From: a virus
Taxonomy: Duplodnaviria; Heunggongvirae; Uroviricota; Caudoviricetes
IMG/VR virus record: IMGVR_UViG_2663762992_000004
Strand: one strand, 5' to 3'
DNA length: 6,501 nt
Shown one piece after another: positions 1 to 6,501 of this stretch. Made by a program: the position numbers and the translations under genes. Under the pieces are notes generated by a model. That model saw only the letters and a program-made list of their open reading frames with translations, had not been told where the DNA came from and did not search any database. Each line of letters starts with the position of its first letter. Position 1 is the first letter of the stretch.

Positions 1-96
1 ATTTTCTCCAGATGCTCTGTATGGTCAATCAAGTATTGGATCATATGCATAATTAATCTTTTAATCAGTTAATAGAATAAAAACCTAGGTAAACAC
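1..96 (+). promoter_or_regulatory. AT-rich leader upstream of the DNA polymerase gene; probable promoter/5' UTR region, with no confident -35/-10 assignment
   Basis: Non-coding AT-rich stretch directly upstream of the 687-aa ORF. A weak Shine-Dalgarno-like AGGT lies about 8 nt before the ATG at 97, and a TAGAAT hexamer at 73..78 is a possible -10. Promoter elements were judged by eye only. Confidence 0.25.
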
Positions 97-2160
97 ATGT
101 CCAATATACTATGGGGCGACCTGGAAACCTATTGCGAAATCCCTATTACGAACGGTACCCATGCGTATGCCGAAGGCGTTGAAGTGATGCTTTTCGCATG
201 GGCTATCAACGACGGGCCAGTAAACGTGTGGGATATCACTGCCGGTGGTGGTATTCCACACGGCTTATACGAAGCAATCGCAGACCCTGAAACCCTGCTT
301 TATTTCCATAACTCTCACTTCGACCGCACCGTTCTGCGTTATGCAATGCCGCGACTGGCACCGCCAGTCGAACGTTGGCGCGACACGATGGTGCAGGCGC
401 TGGCGCACGGTCTCCCGGGGTCTCTGGGGGAACTCTGCGAAGTACTAGGCGTCCCGCAAGACAAAGCGAAGGACAAAGAAGGTAAAGCGCTGATCCAGCT
501 GTTCTGTAAGCCACGTCCGAAAAACAGCAAACTGCGTCGGGCCACCAGTAAAACCCATCCGGAAGAATGGCGGCGCTTTGTTGCTTACGCCGGACTGGAT
601 ATCGAAGCAATGCGTGAAGTCTATAAACGTCTGCCGAAGTGGAATTATCAGGGGACAGAGCTGGCGCTCTGGCATCGTGATCAGCAGATCAACGACCGGG
701 GCGTCTGCATGGACATGCAACTCGCGCGCGCTGCGATCGAAGCGGTAGACCAGGAGCAAAAGCGCCTGGCAAAGCGTACACAGGAAATGACTGATGGCGA
801 AGTGCAGGCAGCCACACAACGGGACGCGTTGATTAAGCACATCGTTGAATCCTACGGTGTGGAGCTACCAGACATGCAACGCAGTACCCTGGAACGTCGT
901 ATGGCCGACCCCGATTTATCATCTGCCGTGAAAGAACTGCTGGCTATCCGCCTGCAAGCCAGTACTACCAGCACCAGTAAATACAAGGCACTGATGAAAG
1001 GCGTAAGCCACGACGGGCGCTTACGCGGTACGCTACAGTTCTGCGGGGCGTCACGTACCGGTCGTTGGGCCGGACGGCTATTCCAGCCCCAGAACCTTCC
1101 CCGCCCTTCACTAAAACAGGAACAAATAGACGAAGGCATCGAAGCACTGAAAGCCGGATGTGCAGACCTGCTGTTTGACAATATCATGGAACTAACCAGT
1201 TCAGCGTTACGTGGCTGCATTATCGCGCCAACAGGCAAAAAACTAGTGGTAAGTGACTTGTCAAACATTGAAGGCCGTATGCTGGCATGGCTGGCGGGAG
1301 AAGAATGGAAACTGAATGCATTCAGAGAGTATGACGCTGGAACGGGTCCGGACTTATATAAACTGGCGTATGCAAAAGCTTTCGATATTGCACCAGATGA
1401 TGTTGATAAACACATGCGTCAGATCGGTAAAGTCATGGAACTCGGTCTGGGTTATGGAGGTGGTGTATCGGCTTTCATCACTTTTGCTCTGGTTTACGGT
1501 CTCGATCTCGACGAGCTGGCGAACGCCGCACTGCCAAACATTCCCCGCGATGTTATCCGCGAGGCAAAAAGCTGGTACGACGAATCGGTTAAGCGTAAGT
1601 CGACCTTTGGCCTGTCCGAGCGTGTATTCATCGCATGTGACTCGCTCAAGCGCCTGTGGCGCAGGGCGCACCCGGCGACCTGCGATTTCTGGTACGAGCT
1701 GGAGCGCACTGTCCGCACAGCAATCGCCACACCGCAAAAAACATTGTATTGCGGCTATCTTAAAATCCGACGTGATGGCGCGTGGCTGCGCATACAGCTA
1801 CCATCCGGACGCGCTGTATGCTACCCGTCTCCGGTTATCGAACAAGGGAATATCACCTACATGGGTGTTAACTCTTATTCGCGTAAATGGCAACGACTCA
1901 AAACCTACGGCGGAAAGCTGGTGGAGAACGTCACCCAGGCGGCCGCCCGCGACGTTCTAGCCAGAAACATGCCGCTGATCGAGGGTGCCGGTTACAGCAT
2001 TGTGCTAACGGTACACGACGAGGTGATCACCGAAGCACCAGACACAGAAGATTTCAACGATAAAGCGCTTTCCGCGCTTCTCTCCACTAACCCCGAATGG
2101 GCACCCGATATTCCGCTGAACGCTGGCGGCTTTGAGGCGTACCACTACAAAAAAGATTGA
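97..2160 (+). CDS. Family A (Pol I / T7-like) DNA polymerase with N-terminal 3'-5' proofreading exonuclease domain, phage type
   Basis: 687-aa ORF. Exo I motif D-x-E in the N-terminus ([10 protein letters not shown]). Polymerase motif A ([19 protein letters not shown]), motif B ([16 protein letters not shown]) and motif C ([11 protein letters not shown]) are present in canonical order. Long ORF with uniform codon usage and no competing frame. Confidence 0.92.
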
Positions 2161-2224
2161 TATAACTCACCTTATCGAGCTATGGCGACATGCTGAATTC
2201 GAGTAAATTAAAGGTACAATACTT

Positions 2225-2986
2225 ATGCAGGAACTAACTGAAATGCCGATCAACTATCCATACCCGAGAGAATCTTTTCCTGACTTTTTGAGGGAGTGTG
2301 GGTTCACCAATTTTTCCCACGAACAGCGTGAGACTTATGACTGCTATCGTTTAACGAATGGCGTAATTGTTAACCTTTACACCACCCGGACCATTCAGTT
2401 TCAAGGGAACCCTCAAGAACGTCCCAATGTTGAAACTGCAATAATGTCCCATTTAGGAACGCCCCCCACGGCAACACCACTAGCCGTAGAACAGCCATCT
2501 GAGCTTCCCAAAAAGATATTCATTGTTCACGGCCATGACCATACTGCAAAGGAACAACTTGAGCTAATCCTTCATAAACTTGGATTACCAGACCATTTCA
2601 TTTTGCAGAATACGGGAGGGACTGGACTCACCATTATTGAAGAGCTTGAACGTGAAATTGGGCAAGGACAAACTGCTACTCGTTTCGGGATTGTTCTTTT
2701 GACACCTGATGATATGGGATACTCAAAGCGCGCCGGTGAAGCAGAAATCCAACCCCGCGCAAGACAGAACGTTGTACTCGAGATGGGTATGCTTCTTTCG
2801 TCCTTAGGGCGCAGCAATGTAGCAATCCTTCAGAAACAGCACCTAGAACAGCCTTCTGATGCTAACGGGATTTTGTATCTGAATTTCAACGACCATGTAC
2901 GTGAAACAGTTCCTCGTCTAGTGCAACGGTTACAAAATTCTGGTTTCGAATTTACACAAGCTCAAATAGCTAACGCTTCCTCGTAA
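2225..2986 (+). CDS. Two-domain cargo protein: N-terminal domain of unknown function (~aa 1-78), Pro/Thr-rich linker, C-terminal TIR-like nucleotide-processing domain (~aa 96-235); candidate defence/abortive-infection effector
   Basis: 253-aa ORF with a weak AGGT Shine-Dalgarno-like element ~9 nt upstream. C-terminal domain shows the pattern KKIFIVHGHD ... IVLLTPDD ... PRARQNVVLEMGMLLSSLGRSNVAILQK, which I recognise as characteristic of the bacterial 'TIR-like' flavodoxin-fold family (Pfam PF10137-type) with a conserved Glu in NVVLEMG. GC is visibly lower than the flanking polymerase gene. The domain call is from motif recognition, not a profile search. Confidence 0.7.
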   Translation: MQELTEMPINYPYPRESFPDFLRECGFTNFSHEQRETYDCYRLTNGVIVNLYTTRTIQFQGNPQERPNVETAIMSHLGTPPTATPLAVEQPSELPKKIFIVHGHDHTAKEQLELILHKLGLPDHFILQNTGGTGLTIIEELEREIGQGQTATRFGIVLLTPDDMGYSKRAGEAEIQPRARQNVVLEMGMLLSSLGRSNVAILQKQHLEQPSDANGILYLNFNDHVRETVPRLVQRLQNSGFEFTQAQIANASS

Positions 2987-3010
2987 TTACCCCCTTATTG
3001 TTGATTACAA

Positions 3011-3036
3011 CCCTGCATTGCGGGGTTTTTTATTTG
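3011..3036 (+). terminator. Rho-independent terminator downstream of the TIR-like gene
   Basis: GC-rich hairpin CCCTGCATTGCGGGG (stem CCCTGC / GCGGGG with one G-U pair and a short loop) immediately followed by TTTTTTATTT, located 25 nt after the stop codon at 2986. Confidence 0.6.
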
Positions 3037-3050
3037 GGAATAAAAACCCT

Positions 3051-3185
3051 ATGTCATTTAAATACCGGGACAGTCCGCTTTATTACCGGACTGCACGGGA
3101 GGCTTTGCGCCTTGAACAGTCCAGCGGGTACGACCGGGCGATGCAGGTCTGGGCCAAAGCGAACGTCGGTTTGATTTTTGTCTGA
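3051..3185 (+). CDS. Possible small ORF (44 aa, MSFKYRDSPLYYRTAREALRLEQSSGYDRAMQVWAKANVGLIFV), hypothetical
   Basis: ATG at 3051 to TGA at 3183..3185, my own translation; it is below the size cut-off of the supplied ORF track. Codon usage is GC-rich like the phage backbone, but there is no clear Shine-Dalgarno sequence. It could instead be untranslated leader carrying a promoter for the downstream genes. Confidence 0.2.
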   Translation: MSFKYRDSPLYYRTAREALRLEQSSGYDRAMQVWAKANVGLIFV

Positions 3186-3221
3186 TGCAGAACATGCGCG
3201 AAAAGCGTAAGGAGGTGGACG

Positions 3222-3416
3222 ATGTCTAATATCGATAATAAAGGTTGGGGGTTCCCCGCCCTGTCGAAAAAAGCACATTTCTTTAATTCGGGGGAAGCCA
3301 TATCACTATGCGGAAAATGGATGTTCACAGGTATCAGGATTGACGAATGGCATGACCATCCTGAGAACTGCGCTATCTGCATGAAGAAACGCAAAAAGCA
3401 GGAAGGCGAAAGCTAA
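3222..3416 (+). CDS. Small hypothetical protein (64 aa) with a Cys/His cluster (C30, H44, H46, C50, C53); possible zinc-binding
   Basis: Strong Shine-Dalgarno AAGGAGG 7 nt upstream of the ATG at 3222. Its stop overlaps the start of the next gene (TAATG at 3414..3418), indicating translational coupling with the VRR-NUC gene. Confidence 0.6.
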   Translation: MSNIDNKGWGFPALSKKAHFFNSGEAISLCGKWMFTGIRIDEWHDHPENCAICMKKRKKQEGES

Positions 3417-3700
3417 TGGCCTATGAACGTGAAAACCTAATCGAAAAGCACCTCGTCGCTGAAGTAAAAAAGGCTGGCGGGGTTGCCTTTAAGTTCGTAT
3501 CTCCCGGTCTCCGCTCGGTACCAGATCGCATTGTTCTGCTACCCGGCGGTCGCATCGTCTTTGTCGAATGCAAAGCACCAGGCAAACCACCACGACCTGA
3601 TCAGTTGCGCGAGCATGAACGTCTGCGAAAACTGGGCTTTACCGTGGTAGTACTGGATAGTAAGGAGCTTTCATGTATATTAGGCAAAAAATTACAATAG
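3416..3700 (+). CDS. VRR-NUC domain nuclease (PD-(D/E)xK superfamily), phage-associated
   Basis: 94-aa ORF with the pattern PDRIVLLPGGRIVFVECKAPGKPPRPDQLREHERLRKLGF, typical of VRR-NUC proteins (D ... E-x-K catalytic core followed by a conserved Q/E-rich helix). It is translationally coupled to the upstream small ORF. The last ~15 codons become AT-rich, suggesting the native 3' end was remodelled by the adjacent insertion. Confidence 0.82.
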   Translation: MAYERENLIEKHLVAEVKKAGGVAFKFVSPGLRSVPDRIVLLPGGRIVFVECKAPGKPPRPDQLREHERLRKLGFTVVVLDSKELSCILGKKLQ

Positions 3701-3715
3701 GAGTCTGTGTAAGCT

Positions 3716-4633
3716 ATGGCTAAGCAACAAACGAAAGAAATAAACCAAGATGATGTAAAAGACAACAAAAATATGCCACCTCATATATGCGGCATTATTA
3801 TGCCAATTGCGGACATAGAAGGTTATCCCACTGGACATTGGAGAAATGTTCATGACATTATTTGTGAAGCATCAAATGATGCCGGATTCAAGGCAAATTT
3901 GGTAAGTTCAGATGATGATGTTGCAGTAATACAAAAACGAATTGTTCAAAATCTTTATGAAAACCCCATAGTTGTTTGCGATATAAGTGCTCGAAACGCT
4001 AATGTAATGTTTGAATTAGGAATGCGTCTCGCATTTGACAAACCGACCGTAATTATTAAGGACGAGCGCACTCCTTATAGCTTTGACATTTCATCAATTG
4101 AACATTTAGAGTACCCTTCGGATTTAAGATACCAATCAATCAATTTATTCAAAGAAAGACTTGCGAGCAAGATAAAAGAAACATATTTAAAGTCAGTAAC
4201 TGATCCTGAATACACAACATTCCTCAAACATTTTGGCACTTTCAAAGTTGCACAACTAGACCAGAAAGAAGTATCAGAAACTGAGTATCTGGCATCTGAG
4301 ATTAAAGATATCAAATCATTATTGATATCTCTTAGGGCAACAGCAACGACAAAATCCAGATTTTTCGACTCACCGAAAAATTACTCGCAGCAGGAAATTG
4401 ACAACTCTGTAGATATTATTAAAAATGGAGTTGCCAGTTATACTATAAGGAGTGAAGGATTTAGTATATCAAAATCAGCACTAGAAAAGTTACGCCAAAG
4501 ACTACACAACGCAGGATTTCAAGTCGAGCAAATAGTATTGACAGGAAAAGAAGTAATTATTCATCTGTCATCACCTTTAATAAATGAAGAAGAAAATATT
4601 TTTAAAGATGCAATAGTAACAGCACTATTATAA
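3716..4633 (+). CDS. AT-rich cargo protein: N-terminal nucleoside 2-deoxyribosyltransferase-like / TIR-like flavodoxin-fold domain (~aa 24-116) plus C-terminal region of unknown function (~aa 120-305); candidate defence or counter-defence effector
   Basis: 305-aa ORF with AGGAG Shine-Dalgarno ~8 nt upstream. N-terminal pattern ICGIIMPIADIEGYP ... NPIVVCDISARNANVMFELGMRLAFDKPTVIIKD matches the D...N-x-V-x-F-E-x-G...K-P signature of nucleoside 2-deoxyribosyltransferase-like domains, with Glu100 as the putative catalytic nucleophile. GC is markedly lower than the neighbouring genes, and Lys/Asn/Ile-rich codon usage points to foreign origin. Domain call is by motif only. Confidence 0.7.
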   Translation: MAKQQTKEINQDDVKDNKNMPPHICGIIMPIADIEGYPTGHWRNVHDIICEASNDAGFKANLVSSDDDVAVIQKRIVQNLYENPIVVCDISARNANVMFELGMRLAFDKPTVIIKDERTPYSFDISSIEHLEYPSDLRYQSINLFKERLASKIKETYLKSVTDPEYTTFLKHFGTFKVAQLDQKEVSETEYLASEIKDIKSLLISLRATATTKSRFFDSPKNYSQQEIDNSVDIIKNGVASYTIRSEGFSISKSALEKLRQRLHNAGFQVEQIVLTGKEVIIHLSSPLINEEENIFKDAIVTALL

Positions 4634-4645
4634 ATAACATTTTTA

Positions 4646-4680
4646 AAACAACAAAAGGTCTAAATTGGCCTTTTGTTGTT
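4646..4680 (+). terminator. Intrinsic terminator-like hairpin downstream of the AT-rich cargo gene
   Basis: Perfect 12-bp inverted repeat AACAACAAAAGG (4646..4657) / CCTTTTGTTGTT (4668..4679) around a 10-nt loop. The 3' arm is itself T-rich and is followed directly by the helicase Shine-Dalgarno TAGGAG. The AT-rich stem means it may act as a weak or bidirectional terminator, or as an insertion scar. Confidence 0.5.
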
Positions 4681-4695
4681 TAGGAGCCATATTAT

Positions 4696-6090
4696 ATGCC
4701 CCCAAAATATATACCTCGCCCCTACCAAGTTCTCATTATCAACCACGAAACCGAAACCCTGCGCGGCAACATCTGGGCGGGGATGGGAATGGGTAAAACC
4801 GTGGCAACGCTCACTGCGCTGGAAGATCTCTTTATGGCAGGGGCAGAAACATGCCCCGCACTGGTCCTCGCGCCGCTGCGCGTGGCTGCCAGCACATGGC
4901 CGGATGAAGCACTGAAGTGGGGACATTTGCGCAATATCGAGGTGCAGCCAATTATTGGTAATGCCAAAGCGCGCTCTATGGCGCTGACGAACAGCAACGC
5001 AAGCGTGTTCACCATCAACTACGATAACCTTGTCTGGCTGATTGAAGAATTGGGAGAACGATGGCCGTTCGGTACTGTCATTCCAGATGAAAGCACCCGG
5101 CTAAAATCCTTCCGGCTGCGCGGTGGTGGTAAGCGCGCGGCGGCGCTGGGCAAAGTGGCGCATAAGTATGTCCGGCGCTGGATAAATCTCACCGGTACGC
5201 CAGCACCGAACGGCCTGGTAGATTTGTGGGGACAATCGTGGTTTGTGGACCAGGGGCAACGTCTCGGGCGCACTTACGGCGCGTTTACCTCACGCTGGTT
5301 CAACTCGATACAGTTTCCGGGGCAGAGCTGGACCAAACTGGAGCCTTTTGCTCACTCACAGGGTGAAATACAGCGAGCGTTAGCCGATGTAACCCTCTCG
5401 CTGGATGCGGCCGACTGGTTCGATATCAAAGACCCCATCCATAACGTAATCCGCGTGGATATGCCACCGAAGGCCCGTCAGCAGTATCGTGAAATGGAAA
5501 AGGAAATGTTCCTCGAGCTGAATGGCGAAGGCATCGAAGCACCGAACGCCGCGGCAAAGACACTGAAGTGTCTGCAAATCGCCAGCGGCGCAGTATACAC
5601 AGATGACACCGGAAGTTGGTCAGAACTGCATGACACCAAACTACAGGCGCTGGACAGCATACTGACCGAAGCAGCTGGCGCACCTGTGCTGGTTGCTTAT
5701 CACTGGAAACACGATCTTGAACGCTTGCTTAAAGCATTCCCTCGCGGTCGTCACCTCGACCAGGATCCACAGACACTGCGCGACTGGAATTCCGGAAAGA
5801 TTCCTGTTCTCTTTGCACACCCAGCCAGCGCGGGCCACGGCCTGAACATGCAGGACGGCGGAAATATACTGGTATTTTTCTCACACTGGTGGGACCTGGA
5901 GCAATATCAGCAAATTATTGAACGTATCGGCCCCACCAGGCAGATACAGGCCGGACACAATCGTCCGGTATTTATTCACCACATTATTGCTGCCGACACT
6001 ATGGATGAAATGGTGATGGAGCGGCGCAACTCAAAACGAACAGTGCAGGACATCCTGCTCGATGCCATGAAAAAGAGAGGTATAGCATGA
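4696..6090 (+). CDS. SNF2-family (DEAD/DEAH-like superfamily 2) helicase/ATPase, phage replication type
   Basis: 464-aa ORF with Walker A AGMGMGKT, motif II DESTRLK (DExx-type) and motif III LTGTP in the N-terminal RecA-like lobe, and a C-terminal helicase lobe (HPASAGHGLNMQDGGNILVFFSHWWDLEQYQQIIERIGPTRQ). TAGGAG Shine-Dalgarno 8 nt upstream. The polymerase / VRR-NUC / SNF2 arrangement is common in phage replication modules. Confidence 0.9.
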   Translation: MPPKYIPRPYQVLIINHETETLRGNIWAGMGMGKTVATLTALEDLFMAGAETCPALVLAPLRVAASTWPDEALKWGHLRNIEVQPIIGNAKARSMALTNSNASVFTINYDNLVWLIEELGERWPFGTVIPDESTRLKSFRLRGGGKRAAALGKVAHKYVRRWINLTGTPAPNGLVDLWGQSWFVDQGQRLGRTYGAFTSRWFNSIQFPGQSWTKLEPFAHSQGEIQRALADVTLSLDAADWFDIKDPIHNVIRVDMPPKARQQYREMEKEMFLELNGEGIEAPNAAAKTLKCLQIASGAVYTDDTGSWSELHDTKLQALDSILTEAAGAPVLVAYHWKHDLERLLKAFPRGRHLDQDPQTLRDWNSGKIPVLFAHPASAGHGLNMQDGGNILVFFSHWWDLEQYQQIIERIGPTRQIQAGHNRPVFIHHIIAADTMDEMVMERRNSKRTVQDILLDAMKKRGIA

Positions 6091-6287
6091 GCGAGAAACC
6101 CGACGATTTACTCACCCCGGATGAAGTATGCCAAAAGTTAGGTATTACACAGAAAACGCTATGTGAGTGGAATATTAAGCATCGTCATCGGGCTATCCTG
6201 GCACCAATTCGTTTCAGTGCAAAAGTAGTTCGTTATGAGCGCCGAAATATCGACGCTTTTATTCAAAAATGTCGCAGCCAGTATTAA
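6087..6287 (+). CDS. Small helix-turn-helix DNA-binding protein, AlpA/excisionase-like (HTH_17-type) regulator
   Basis: 66-aa ORF whose ATG overlaps the helicase stop (ATGA at 6087..6090), indicating translational coupling. LTPDEVCQKLGITQKTLCEW is a helix-turn-helix, followed by VRYERRNIDAFI, resembling the conserved C-terminal strand/helix of AlpA/Xis-like proteins. Confidence 0.65.
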   Translation: MSEKPDDLLTPDEVCQKLGITQKTLCEWNIKHRHRAILAPIRFSAKVVRYERRNIDAFIQKCRSQY

Positions 6288-6501
6288 CCTCGCCGCCGTA
6301 GCAATGCCACCTGCGCAAGTATGCTCCGCTCGTGAGCCTCGAAAGCTTCGCGCTTCAACGCAATCTCTTCCTGTAAAATCTCATCAGAAAAGTCGTAATG
6401 TTCTGCCATCGGGTCATCTGACTTGCTGGAGTGGTGNNGGCNNNGGNNGAAACCGGCGAAGAGCCGCAGACCACGCGAGTATTGCGGGTAAAACTGCAAA
6501 C
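6284..6501 (-). CDS. Hypothetical protein, 3' (C-terminal) part only; the gene probably continues beyond the window end
   Basis: Minus-strand ORF open to the window edge; the initial M in the supplied translation is probably an artefact of truncation. It contains ambiguous bases (N at 6437-6438, 6442-6444, 6447-6448). Its stop overlaps the stop of the + strand HTH gene (convergent, tail-to-tail). No recognisable domain in ...MAEHYDFSDEILQEEIALKREAFEAHERSILAQVALLRRRG. Confidence 0.35.
   Translation of the reverse strand, partial: LQFYPQYSRGLRLFAGFXXXXHHSSKSDDPMAEHYDFSDEILQEEIALKREAFEAHERSILAQVALLRRRG

What the first reader, a model, noticed from the sequence alone, without database searches (positions are those of the whole stretch)
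2161..4695. Replication-module hotspot: two independent cargo insertions, each ending in a terminator
The backbone order polymerase / (small ORFs) / VRR-NUC / helicase is interrupted twice. Cassette 1 (about 2161..3040) ends with a GC-rich hairpin plus T-run. Cassette 2 (about 3660..4695) ends with a 12-bp perfect AT-rich hairpin abutting the helicase ribosome-binding site. Downstream backbone genes show tight translational coupling, which the cargo genes lack. This matches the moron model of phage accessory genes and marks the locus as a variable hotspot where other relatives may carry different defence cargo.
Basis: partly seen in the sequence, partly recalled or inferred. Interest (0 to 1): 0.5.

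Follow-up and report, generated by a model that had tools for sequence, protein, structure and literature searches.

The report
Prophage replication operon cargo hotspots
Two foreign, low-GC single genes, each followed by its own terminator hairpin, sit at swappable slots between the replication genes of an E. coli prophage; related prophages carry other genes there, including known anti-phage genes, so this is a real but familiar kind of accessory-gene hotspot.

Summary
The window is the integrase-proximal replication operon of a temperate E. coli phage found in about 160 of 5426 complete genomes.

**Cassette 1 (2149-3046, 43.5% GC).** It carries a TIR-domain gene (PADLOC candidate PDC-S35) and a classic terminator. 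In relatives with an empty site, the polymerase stop lies 4-5 nt from the next gene.

**Cassette 2 (3666-4713, 33.9% GC).** It carries an uncharacterised 305-aa gene and a 13-15 bp hairpin that abuts the helicase ribosome-binding site. In one relative, VRR-NUC and the helicase overlap directly (GTGA).

**Variation among relatives.**
- The slots vary independently. The TIR gene occurs in 47 genomes and the 305-aa gene in 24, and the TIR gene pairs with at least five other slot-2 cargos.
- Slot-2 alternatives include BstA, Dcm, PDC-S42, DUF6338, Arc/Rha and several unnamed low-GC genes.
- There are at least two further variable slots.

**The cargo proteins.** Both combine a conserved TIR or NDT-like catalytic domain with a fast-diverging small domain, which fits anti-phage immunity.

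**Not shown.** I could not establish cassette promoters, expression in lysogeny, or actual defence activity.

This is a new example of a known phenomenon (morons, prophage defence hotspots). Its main value is as a source of untested candidate defence genes.

The parts
97..2160 (+). Family A DNA polymerase (backbone). Its last three codons and stop (2149-2160) differ from empty-site relatives (KKD* here, RKD* there).
   Evidence: Pfam PF00476, 2.4e-14; junction alignment.
2149..3046 (.). Cassette 1: an 898-bp foreign segment, 43.5% GC. It is absent from relatives in which the polymerase stop lies 4-5 nt from the ANR start.
   Evidence: blastn breakpoints against L008-L011; junction sequences; GC.
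2225..2986 (+). Cargo gene 1: a 253-aa protein. Residues ~8-76 form an alpha-beta4-alpha N-domain with sub-threshold RnlA_toxin/DUF3378 matches; by recollection both are TBP-like folds, and no fold match for this domain was obtained. Residues 97-222 form a CAP12/Pycsar-type TIR domain with Glu186 in the NVVLEMG motif.
3009..3035 (+). Intrinsic-terminator-like hairpin (AACCCTGC-ATT-GCGGGGTT) plus a T-run, 23 nt after the TIR stop and 16 nt before the ANR start.
   Evidence: Scan; fold. An analogous terminator follows the divergent TIR cassettes in L021 and L022.
3051..3229 (+). ANR-family regulator pseudogene, with a 40-nt deletion relative to intact copies.
   Evidence: NCBIfam NF033650; RefSeq 'frameshifted' flag; alignment.
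3222..3416 (+). 64-aa ORF (phrog_2358) occupying a third variable slot. Relatives have DUF4406, DUF7446, a type II methyltransferase, or nothing here.
3416..3700 (+). VRR-NUC/PD-(D/E)XK nuclease (backbone up to about 3665). Its C-terminal ~11 codons belong to cassette 2.
   Evidence: phrog_93 3.4e-31; PF08774 weak; breakpoints.
3666..4713 (.). Cassette 2: a 1048-bp foreign segment, 33.9% GC. It includes the helicase ribosome-binding site, start codon and first 6 codons.
   Evidence: Breakpoints; empty site in L008 where the VRR-NUC stop overlaps the helicase GTG; GC.
3716..4633 (+). Cargo gene 2: a 305-aa protein. Residues ~23-165 form a flavodoxin-like N-domain of the NDT/TIR type, with an invariant NVMFELG...HLEYPSD motif. 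A helical linker follows, then a small alpha/beta C-domain (~225-305) that is hypervariable across the family.
4646..4681 (+). AT-rich hairpin of 13 perfect bp (15 with G-U and C-G) and a 6-nt loop, with an A-tract/GGNC/T-tract architecture. It is a probable (bidirectional-type) terminator and ends one base before the helicase Shine-Dalgarno sequence.
   Evidence: The homologous K. aerogenes cassette has AAAAAAAAAAGGCC-ATGAC-GGCCTTTTTTTTTT at the same place.
4696..6090 (+). SNF2-family helicase (backbone from 4714 onward).
   Evidence: PF00176 8.4e-11; breakpoints.
6087..6287 (+). HTH_17/AlpA-like small regulator (probable excisionase), overlapping the helicase by 4 nt.
   Evidence: PF12728; annotation.
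6284..6436 (-). 3' end of the tyrosine integrase gene. In complete genomes the prophage ends beside yfhL.
   Evidence: Annotation of L001.

Best explanation
The window is the integrase-proximal early/replication operon of a temperate E. coli phage. Its backbone order is DUF2800, DUF2815, PolA, ANR, VRR-NUC, SNF2 helicase, Xis-like HTH, integrase.

Boundaries between backbone genes serve as exchange slots. In this phage two slots each hold a foreign, low-GC, single-gene cassette that brings its own downstream terminator hairpin. Cassette 2 also brings the helicase translation-start region.

Cassettes are swapped among related prophages by recombination within the conserved flanking coding sequence, not by a transposon or integrase. 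The joints lie in the last codons of the polymerase and VRR-NUC and in codon 7 of the helicase. There are no target-site duplications, terminal repeats or mobility genes.

Both cargo proteins pair a conserved N-glycosidase-type catalytic domain with a rapidly diverging small domain.
- Cassette 1 has a CAP12-type TIR domain with the catalytic-motif Glu.
- Cassette 2 has a related NDT/TIR-like domain.

The most likely function (inferred) is prophage-encoded protection of the lysogen against other phages. The variable domain would sense an infection cue, and the catalytic domain would deplete NAD+ or a nucleotide, giving abortive infection or growth arrest.

Shown: cassette boundaries, variability, independence, composition, hairpins, domain identities.
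Inferred: the recombination mechanism, terminator activity, expression in lysogeny, defence function.
For: - Empty sites: polymerase stop to ANR start is 4-5 nt in L008, L009 and L010. The VRR-NUC stop overlaps the helicase GTG in L008.
- Breakpoints are reproducible across 10 relatives.
- Census of 5426 complete E. coli genomes: backbone in about 160, TIR gene in 47, 305-aa gene in 24.
- At least 10 alternative cargo sets occupy slot 2 in a 59-genome sample.
- Independence: window-type TIR occurs with a 265-aa gene on the minus strand, DUF6338, Arc/Rha and Dcm. K. aerogenes has the 305-aa homolog with slot 1 empty.
- Validated or candidate defence genes occur in the same slots: BstA 1e-110 to 1e-115, PDC-S42, SIR2 PDC-S25, type II methyltransferase. 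BstA is validated in PMC8585504.
- GC is 43.5% and 33.9% against a 54-55% backbone. Cargo homologs stay at 37-38% GC inside 53-59% GC neighbours in Klebsiella.
- Terminator-like hairpins accompany the cargo in independent lineages.
- No flanking repeats.
- The 305-aa protein matches MilB, Cap12 and NDT folds. The hhalign comparison with the TIR family gives E 2e-4 over the catalytic motif.
- Conserved catalytic domain versus hypervariable partner domain in both proteins.
- The 305-aa family is a solo gene in prophages and integrative elements of five genera.
Against: - No convincing cassette promoter. Cassette 1 has none at 9/12 or better. The 9/12 site of cassette 2 (3654-3681) uses a backbone -35 and lies in coding sequence, and such matches are no more frequent than in shuffles.
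- Both cargo genes are co-oriented with the replication operon, so they could be transcribed with it during lytic growth.
- In a lambdoid prophage the 305-aa homolog lies in the early-right (nin-like) region directly after a terminator. That fits lytic-phase expression.
- PDC-S35 is only a computational candidate (bioRxiv 10.1101/2024.01.29.577857). The 305-aa family matches no named defence system in PADLOC.
- If the terminators are efficient, helicase expression needs read-through or an unseen promoter.
- The 24 genomes carrying cassette 2 are at least 99.9% identical there, so they may represent one clonal lineage.
Confidence: 0.75

Rival explanations
1. The cargo genes are phage offence or counter-defence genes rather than lysogen defence. 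On this view they are early lytic genes transcribed with the replication operon. Their N-glycosidase-type domains would destroy host immune signals or nucleotides (for example TIR- or CBASS-derived signals, or NAD-related molecules), or remodel nucleotide pools for phage replication.
For: - The cargo genes are co-oriented with the operon and have no clear own promoter.
- The 305-aa homolog lies in the nin-like early region of a lambdoid prophage, just after a terminator.
- Other cargo in the same slots is typical anti-restriction or regulatory material: Dcm, type II methyltransferase, Ant, Rha, Arc.
- NDT-like DUF4406 and an Nmad5 nucleotide-modification gene occur in the same module.
Against: - Slot neighbours include bona fide or candidate defence genes: BstA, SIR2, PDC-S42.
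- Many alternative cargos lie on the opposite strand, so they are transcribed independently of the operon.
- The TIR protein is a full-length match to a family defined by embedding in defence loci (bioRxiv 10.1101/2024.01.29.577857).
- A conserved effector with a hypervariable partner domain is typical of immune sensors.
Confidence: 0.17
2. The cassettes were inserted by a dedicated mobile element (a transposon, homing-endonuclease cassette or integron-like site-specific system) rather than by recombination between related phages.
For: The joints are sharp and reproducible at gene boundaries.
Against: - No target-site duplication, terminal inverted repeat or mobility gene lies at or within either cassette.
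- The joints lie inside coding sequence, and each cargo carries its own version of the adjoining codons.
- The same cargo family sits at unrelated positions in other prophage types.
Confidence: 0.04
3. The two hairpins are not transcription terminators. They would be chance or structural features, such as mRNA-stabilising 3' stem-loops, processing sites or recombination joints. On this view the genes are ordinary members of one long operon.
For: - Terminator-like motifs are not enriched in the window: 5 found against 7.7 expected.
- Hairpin 1 has only z -1.6.
- Hairpin 2 has a weak G-C core and no separate U-tract beyond its own 3' arm.
- The downstream helicase must still be expressed for phage replication.
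Against: - Both hairpins lie in the only two >60-nt gaps that directly follow cargo stop codons.
- Hairpin 2 has z -4.5.
- Independent cassette lineages carry canonical A-tract/GC-stem/T-tract terminators at the same place (L012, L013, L021, L022).
Confidence: 0.1
4. The two genes are conserved core components of this phage's replication module, and the compositional impression is an artefact.
For: None after testing.
Against: - Empty-site and alternative-cargo relatives exist.
- GC differs by 11-21 points from the backbone.
Confidence: 0.01

Closest known systems
Phage 'morons' (Hendrix/Juhala concept of HK97/HK022; as used in PMC8585504)
   Same: A single gene lies between two genes that are adjacent in relatives. 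It has deviant (low) GC and a factor-independent terminator just downstream.
   Different: An own promoter and expression from the repressed prophage are not demonstrated. The cassette joints reach into the flanking coding sequences, and cassette 2 supplies the helicase start.
Prophage and satellite defence hotspots (P2/P4 hotspots, Rousset et al. 2022, PMC9122126; the cI-N region of lambdoid phages noted in PMC8585504)
   Same: Conserved flanking core genes surround many mutually exclusive cargo sets at the same position. Known defence systems occur among the cargo (BstA, SIR2, methyltransferases), alongside many unknown low-GC genes.
   Different: This is a different phage family (PolA/VRR-NUC/SNF2 replication module, integrated beside yfhL). 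At least four small slots lie inside one operon rather than one or two large hotspots. I found no description of this family's slots in the searchable literature.
Cap12 (TIR-STING) and PycTIR effectors of CBASS and Pycsar
   Different: It has no STING, SAVED or cNMP-binding domain, and no cyclase gene nearby. It scores 35 bits against the 450-bit cutoff of the NCBIfam Cap12 equivalog. Instead it has a small alpha-beta4-alpha N-domain (possibly TBP-like).
PADLOC PDC-S35 (single-gene phage defence candidate, Payne et al. bioRxiv 10.1101/2024.01.29.577857)
   Same: The cassette 1 protein matches end to end (E 1.2e-108).
   Different: The family is a prediction by 'guilt-by-embedding' and is not reported as tested. 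Here it lies in a prophage slot rather than embedded in an RM, BREX or Hma locus.
Nucleoside 2-deoxyribosyltransferase / MilB / DNPH1 (Rcl) N-glycosidases
   Different: The sequence is below Pfam thresholds. It has an extra helical linker and a hypervariable C-domain. Its motif pattern is closer to CAP12-type TIR. No substrate is known.
BstA abortive-infection proteins (PMC8585504)
   Same: BstA occupies the same slot 2 in sister prophages (L009, L010) as a single-gene, prophage-borne cargo.
   Different: It is not present in this window. It is unrelated in sequence to either cargo here and lies on the opposite strand.

Membership tests
Moron (autonomous accessory gene unit of temperate phages) | Lies between two genes that are directly adjacent in related phages. 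| tested here: met
   Polymerase|ANR are adjacent (4-5 nt) in L008-L010. VRR-NUC|helicase overlap in L008.
Moron (autonomous accessory gene unit of temperate phages) | Nucleotide composition differs from neighbouring phage genes. | tested here: met
   43.5% and 33.9% GC against 54-55%.
Moron (autonomous accessory gene unit of temperate phages) | Factor-independent terminator downstream of the gene. | tested here: met
   Met at the level of prediction only. Hairpin plus T-run at 3009-3035. Hairpin 4646-4681, z -4.5. Conserved in other cassette lineages. Activity was not measured.
Moron (autonomous accessory gene unit of temperate phages) | Own promoter upstream of the gene. | tested here: inconclusive
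   No 9/12-or-better site upstream of the TIR gene. One 9/12 site at 3654-3681 upstream of the 305-aa gene, also present in K. aerogenes. Such matches are not above shuffled expectation.
Moron (autonomous accessory gene unit of temperate phages) | Expressed from the repressed prophage. | not testable with these tools
   Needs RNA-seq or reporter data from a lysogen.
Phage-encoded defence hotspot (sensu Rousset et al. 2022, PMC9122126) | Conserved flanking genes with many alternative gene sets at one position. | tested here: met
   At least 10 cargo sets at slot 2 and at least 6 states between the polymerase and VRR-NUC, among about 160 E. coli prophages.
Phage-encoded defence hotspot (sensu Rousset et al. 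2022, PMC9122126) | Known defence systems among the alternatives. | tested here: met
   BstA, PDC-S42, PDC-S25 (SIR2), PDC-S35, type II methyltransferase.
Phage-encoded defence hotspot (sensu Rousset et al. 2022, PMC9122126) | Cargo confers anti-phage activity. | not testable with these tools
   Needs plaque assays with the cloned cassettes.
CAP12/Pycsar-type TIR domain (Pfam PF10137) | HMM score above the gathering threshold. | tested here: met
   Cassette 1 protein scores 108.4 bits against 24.7. Cassette 2 protein scores 16.2 bits, which is not met.
CAP12/Pycsar-type TIR domain (Pfam PF10137) | Conserved Glu of the NVV-x-E-x-G motif and a TIR fold. | tested here: met
CAP12/Pycsar-type TIR domain (Pfam PF10137) | NAD+ hydrolase activity. 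| not testable with these tools
   Needs a biochemical assay.
CBASS Cap12 / Pycsar PycTIR effector (system membership) | Signal-sensing domain (STING, SAVED or cNMP-binding) and an adjacent cyclase gene. | tested here: not met
   NCBIfam Cap12 equivalogs score 30-35 bits against a 450-bit cutoff. The neighbours are the polymerase and ANR. The N-domain shows only sub-threshold RnlA_toxin/DUF3378 matches.
PADLOC PDC-S35 | Full-length match to the family HMM. | tested here: met
   E 1.2e-108, covering residues 10-253 against profile positions 3-245 of 245.
Nucleoside 2-deoxyribosyltransferase family (Pfam PF05014), for the 305-aa protein | HMM score above the gathering threshold. | tested here: not met

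The most novel reading that the evidence does not exclude
The 305-aa cassette-2 protein represents an unrecognised, widespread family (over 4000 homologs across Enterobacterales, Pseudomonas, Aeromonas, Vibrio and others). On this reading it is a single-gene anti-phage system. A conserved NDT/TIR-like N-glycosidase effector would be coupled to a hypervariable ~100-aa C-terminal sensor, and the gene would move as a self-terminated cassette between prophage slots. Because its closest folds are MilB (a CMP/hydroxymethyl-CMP hydrolase) and DNPH1, its substrate might be a nucleotide monophosphate rather than NAD+, possibly a phage-modified one such as hm-dCMP. By extension, the four slots of this prophage family would be a compact discovery resource for further unknown defence genes: the 265-aa, 236-aa and 214-aa genes, DUF6338, YfbU plus a hypothetical gene, and an ATPase.
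Probability: 0.35. Interest if true: 0.65.

Novelty: new member of a known kind. Interest (0 to 1): 0.45.

Why it matters
Prophage hotspots have proved to be productive places to find new anti-phage systems. This locus adds a compact, well-delimited set of exchange slots in a prophage family present in about 3% of complete E. coli genomes, including the reference commensal IAI1 and several EHEC and ETEC strains.

The slots mix validated defence genes (BstA), candidates (PDC-S35, PDC-S42, SIR2 PDC-S25) and several unnamed low-GC genes. That gives a short, testable list of new defence candidates.

The two cargos in this window share one design: a TIR/NDT-type catalytic domain plus a fast-evolving partner domain. 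One of them belongs to a large family with no annotation at all.

The exact joints inside coding sequence also show how phage operons tolerate cargo. Each cassette brings its own terminator, and cassette 2 brings the translation start for the next backbone gene.

Tried and rejected
- The Foldseek search against afdb50 was unavailable.
- hhalign of the 305-aa family against the single TIR sequence gave only 3% probability. With a TIR family profile it rose to 47%, E 2e-4, over 32 columns. I treat this as supportive only.
- A profile search of the 305-aa family against PDB sequences found nothing meaningful.
- Literature searches for 'PDC-S35' and 'vB_EcoM-689R2' returned no papers. A search on DUF2800/DUF2815/VRR-NUC prophages found only unrelated phages.
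- Rfam found no RNA family anywhere in the window at E <= 1.
- The repeat search found no direct or inverted repeats bounding either cassette, so I rejected transposon-like insertion.
- Promoter scans gave only 9/12 matches at chance frequency, so I make no promoter claim.
- I considered that the ANR frameshift might be caused by the TIR insertion. I rejected this as a general rule because prophages with the divergent TIR cassette keep an intact ANR.

Full report
**What the window is.**
The 6.5-kb window matches chromosomal prophages of E. coli. It is 100% identical over positions 1-6436 to many complete genomes. It is also 99.9-100% identical over 1-6090 to three deposited phages, vB_EcoM-689R2, -611R5 and -606R2.

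In strain WP3-W18-ESBL-08 the gene order is DUF2800, DUF2815, a minus-strand hypothetical gene, DNA polymerase, TIR protein, ANR pseudogene, 64-aa ORF, VRR-NUC, 305-aa ORF, SNF2 helicase, HTH and integrase. The chromosomal gene yfhL follows. The window is therefore the integrase-proximal replication operon of a temperate phage. Domain searches confirm the backbone genes.

**Checking the observation.**
- Terminator 1: a terminator-like hairpin lies at 3009-3027 with a following T-run.
- Hairpin 2: a perfect 13-bp inverted repeat lies at 4646-4658/4669-4681. It folds into 15 pairs at -20.8 kcal/mol with z -4.5. It ends one base before the helicase AGGAG.
- Composition: GC is 54.3% (polymerase), 43.5% (cassette 1), 50.7% (ANR to VRR-NUC), 33.9% (cassette 2) and 54.9% (helicase). 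GC3 is 57, 40, 26 and 59% for polymerase, TIR gene, 305-aa gene and helicase.
- Coupling: the 64-aa ORF and VRR-NUC overlap by 1 nt, and the helicase and HTH gene by 4 nt. The cargo genes are followed by gaps of 64 and 62 nt that hold the hairpins.

The only minor correction is 13 bp rather than 12.

**Exact boundaries and empty sites.**
Cassette boundaries come from blastn of the window against ten related loci and inspection of the joints.

Cassette 1 spans about 2149-3046.
- In strains DEC5E, AF20 and B379, the polymerase ends ...TACCACTAC CGTAAGGATTAA and the ANR start codon follows 4-5 nt later.
- In the window, the last three polymerase codons and the stop are replaced (AAAAAAGATTGA), followed by 886 bp of foreign DNA.

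Cassette 2 spans about 3666-4713.
- In strain B379, the VRR-NUC stop overlaps the helicase GTG (GTGA).
- In the window and in every other cargo-bearing relative, homology stops about 11 codons before the VRR-NUC stop. It resumes at helicase codon 7 (CCTCGCCCCTACCAA).
- Each cargo therefore supplies its own VRR-NUC tail and its own helicase ribosome-binding site, start codon and first six codons.

No direct or inverted repeats flank either cassette, and neither contains a mobility gene. This points to exchange by recombination in the conserved flanks rather than to transposition.

**Variability among relatives.**
The backbone is present in about 160 of 5426 complete E. coli genomes. The TIR gene is in 47 of them:
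- 37 carry the window type.
- 10 carry a variant whose TIR part is about 76% identical in DNA and whose N-terminal part is too diverged to align.

The 305-aa gene is in 24 genomes, all at least 99.9% identical. In one of them it is interrupted by IS1.

A spread sample of 59 genomes shows these states in the polymerase-to-VRR-NUC interval:
- TIR gene: 18.
- ANR plus DUF4406: 24.
- Ant plus DUF4406: 4.
- DUF7446: 3.
- A small hypothetical gene plus a methyltransferase: 5.
- YfbU plus a hypothetical gene: 2.
- A minus-strand ATPase: 2.
- Nothing: 1.

For slot 2, a second 59-genome sample shows these approximate counts:
- The 305-aa gene: 9.
- Dcm plus a partner gene: about 14.
- Arc/Arc/Rha: 9.
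- A three-gene minus-strand set: 7.
- A 236-aa minus-strand gene: 6.
- A 265-aa minus-strand gene: about 6.
- BstA-type: about 4.
- DUF6338: 2.
- Single examples of other genes.

Only one fetched relative (B379) has slot 2 empty.

The two slots assort independently. Window-type TIR occurs with the 265-aa gene, DUF6338, Arc/Rha or Dcm. A K. aerogenes prophage carries a 75%-identical 309-aa homolog in the same slot 2 while its slot 1 is empty.

Two further variable positions exist:
- ANR|VRR-NUC, where the window has the 64-aa phrog_2358 ORF.
- DUF2815|polymerase, which holds a hypothetical gene, Nmad5, SIR2 or AntA/B.

**Defence content of the slots.**
PADLOC models give these matches among the alternative cargos:
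- BstA in DEC5E and AF20 (E 1e-110 to 1e-115).
- PDC-S42 in EC0585.
- SIR2 candidate PDC-S25 upstream of the polymerase in 21KM1392.
- A type II methyltransferase.

BstA is an experimentally validated prophage abortive-infection protein (PMC8585504). Most alternative cargos are low in GC, 32-47%.

**Cargo 1.**
The 253-aa protein matches Pfam PF10137 (CAP12/Pycsar TIR) at 108 bits. It matches the PADLOC candidate PDC-S35 end to end at E 1e-108.

Its N-terminal 8-76 is a confident alpha-beta4-alpha unit. Sub-threshold matches to RnlA_toxin and DUF3378 suggest a TBP-like fold.

It is not a CBASS or Pycsar effector. It has no sensor domain of that kind and no cyclase neighbour, and it scores far below the NCBIfam Cap12 cutoffs.

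PDC systems are computational candidates found by 'guilt-by-embedding' and are not reported as individually tested (bioRxiv 10.1101/2024.01.29.577857).

Between the two E. coli variants, the TIR part is 89% identical in protein but the N-domain only 42-43%.

**Cargo 2.**
The 305-aa protein has no Pfam, NCBIfam or named PADLOC family. It nevertheless has 4466 homologs at E <= 1e-3.

The N-terminal ~180 residues are highly conserved, with a median of 70% identity to the window protein in 38 sampled homologs. The C-terminal ~100 residues are essentially unalignable, with a median of 12%.

The AlphaFold model (pLDDT 71) shows three parts: a flavodoxin-like N-domain, a helical linker and a small alpha/beta C-domain.

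The best structural matches are as follows:
- Nucleoside 2-deoxyribosyltransferases and DNPH1.

Supporting sequence evidence is weaker:
- Sub-threshold Pfam hits go to PF05014 in 35/39 homologs and to PF10137 in 16/39.
- PADLOC gives a TIR-effector hit at 1e-6.
- A profile-profile comparison with the cargo-1 family aligns NVMFELGMRL...HLEYPSD with NVVLEMGMLL...HLEQPSD at E 2e-4 and 47% probability.

I conclude that the N-domain is a divergent member of the TIR/NDT N-glycosidase superfamily. Its substrate is unknown.

Homologs are solo genes with intergenic gaps on both sides. I found them in these settings:
- The same slot of a related K. aerogenes prophage.
- The nin-like region of a K. variicola lambdoid prophage.
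- A defective lambdoid element of Enterobacter hormaechei.
- Next to an integrative element in Pseudomonas.
- An unannotated island in Aeromonas.

They remain at 37-38% GC within 53-59% GC neighbours.

**Terminators travel with the cargo.**
- The K. aerogenes cassette ends in AAAAAAAAAAGGCC-ATGAC-GGCCTTTTTTTTTT. The window hairpin has the same A-tract/GGNC/T-tract design.
- The divergent TIR cassettes end in AAAAAAACCCTGCA-AATG-CAGGGTTTTTT (L021) or in a 14-bp G+C-rich stem plus T-run (L022).

This positional conservation across diverged sequences is the best available evidence that the hairpins are functional terminators.

**What is not established.**
- No convincing promoter precedes the TIR gene.
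- The 9/12 site at 3654-3681 before the 305-aa gene recurs in K. aerogenes. However, its -35 is backbone coding sequence, and such matches occur at chance frequency.
- Both cargos are co-oriented with the operon. In the lambdoid context the homolog sits right after a terminator.
- Lytic-phase expression, and hence a counter-defence or host-takeover role, therefore remains a live alternative.
- Neither cargo has been shown to protect against phages.

**Comparison with what is known, and verdict.**
The locus has four of the five defining features of morons (call references are in the membership table). It has all the computationally testable features of prophage defence hotspots as described for P2/P4 (PMC9122126). 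I found no description of this prophage family's slots in the searchable literature.

Its interest is moderate. It lies mainly in the short list of untested candidate defence genes the slots provide, above all the large unannotated 305-aa family.

Noticed in passing
window 6437-6501: After scattered Ns (6438-6449), the last 52 nt are not the prophage integrase gene, as they are in complete genomes. They are a piece of the core gene nei (endonuclease VIII), 100% identical and present in 5165/5426 E. coli genomes. This looks like a chimeric join or assembly artefact (or a rearrangement) at the window's right end. It explains why the whole-window search hit 5173 genomes.
   Followed up: yes
window 3051-3229: The ANR-family regulator gene is a pseudogene because of a 40-nt deletion. 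All fetched prophages with the window-type TIR cassette share it, whereas prophages with Ant, with an empty slot or with the divergent TIR cassette keep an intact ANR. The remaining 3' part still supplies the AAGGAGG ribosome-binding site of the next ORF.
   Followed up: yes
window 3222-3416: The 64-aa ORF (phrog_2358, 44.6% GC) is not backbone. It occupies a third variable slot between ANR and VRR-NUC, where relatives have DUF4406, DUF7446, a type II methyltransferase, or nothing. Unlike the two large cassettes, it overlaps its neighbours on both sides.
   Followed up: partly
window 1-50 and L001 2421-3050; L011 1228-2709; L006 1-107: A fourth variable slot lies upstream of the polymerase. 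It holds a 209-aa minus-strand hypothetical gene (this phage), Nmad5 plus a small gene, a 493-aa SIR2 protein (PADLOC PDC-S25, 4.9e-157), or an AntA/B antirepressor.
   Followed up: partly
H105, NZ_AP045179.1 1259624-1261318: In strain JNEC-KY203 the 305-aa cargo gene is interrupted by an IS1 element.
   Followed up: no
window 3024-3034 / 3039-3049: The T-tract of the cassette-1 terminator (GGTTTTTTATT) can pair with AATAAAAACCC just downstream. This gives an alternative hairpin immediately before the ANR start. Whether it modulates termination is unknown.
   Followed up: no
L021 4415-5176 and L022 4415-5158 versus window 2225-2986: Two E. coli lineages of the TIR cargo share an 89%-identical TIR domain but only 42-43% identity in the N-terminal 95 residues. 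This suggests diversifying selection or domain replacement in the putative sensor.
   Followed up: partly
L015 12894-12909 and L017 12156-12440: The Klebsiella lambdoid prophages that carry a 305-aa homolog also encode an Acb2/Tad1-hairpin family protein (PF24729) near the lysis genes. By recollection this is an anti-defence sponge family. Defence-like and counter-defence cargo would then coexist in one prophage.
   Followed up: no
window 2225 versus 2243: The TIR ORF has two candidate starts, Met1 at 2225 and Met7 at 2243. The PDC-S35 profile begins aligning at residue 10, and a TACAAT -10-like hexamer sits at 2215-2220. A transcript starting there would only allow the Met7 start. This is unresolved.
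   Followed up: no
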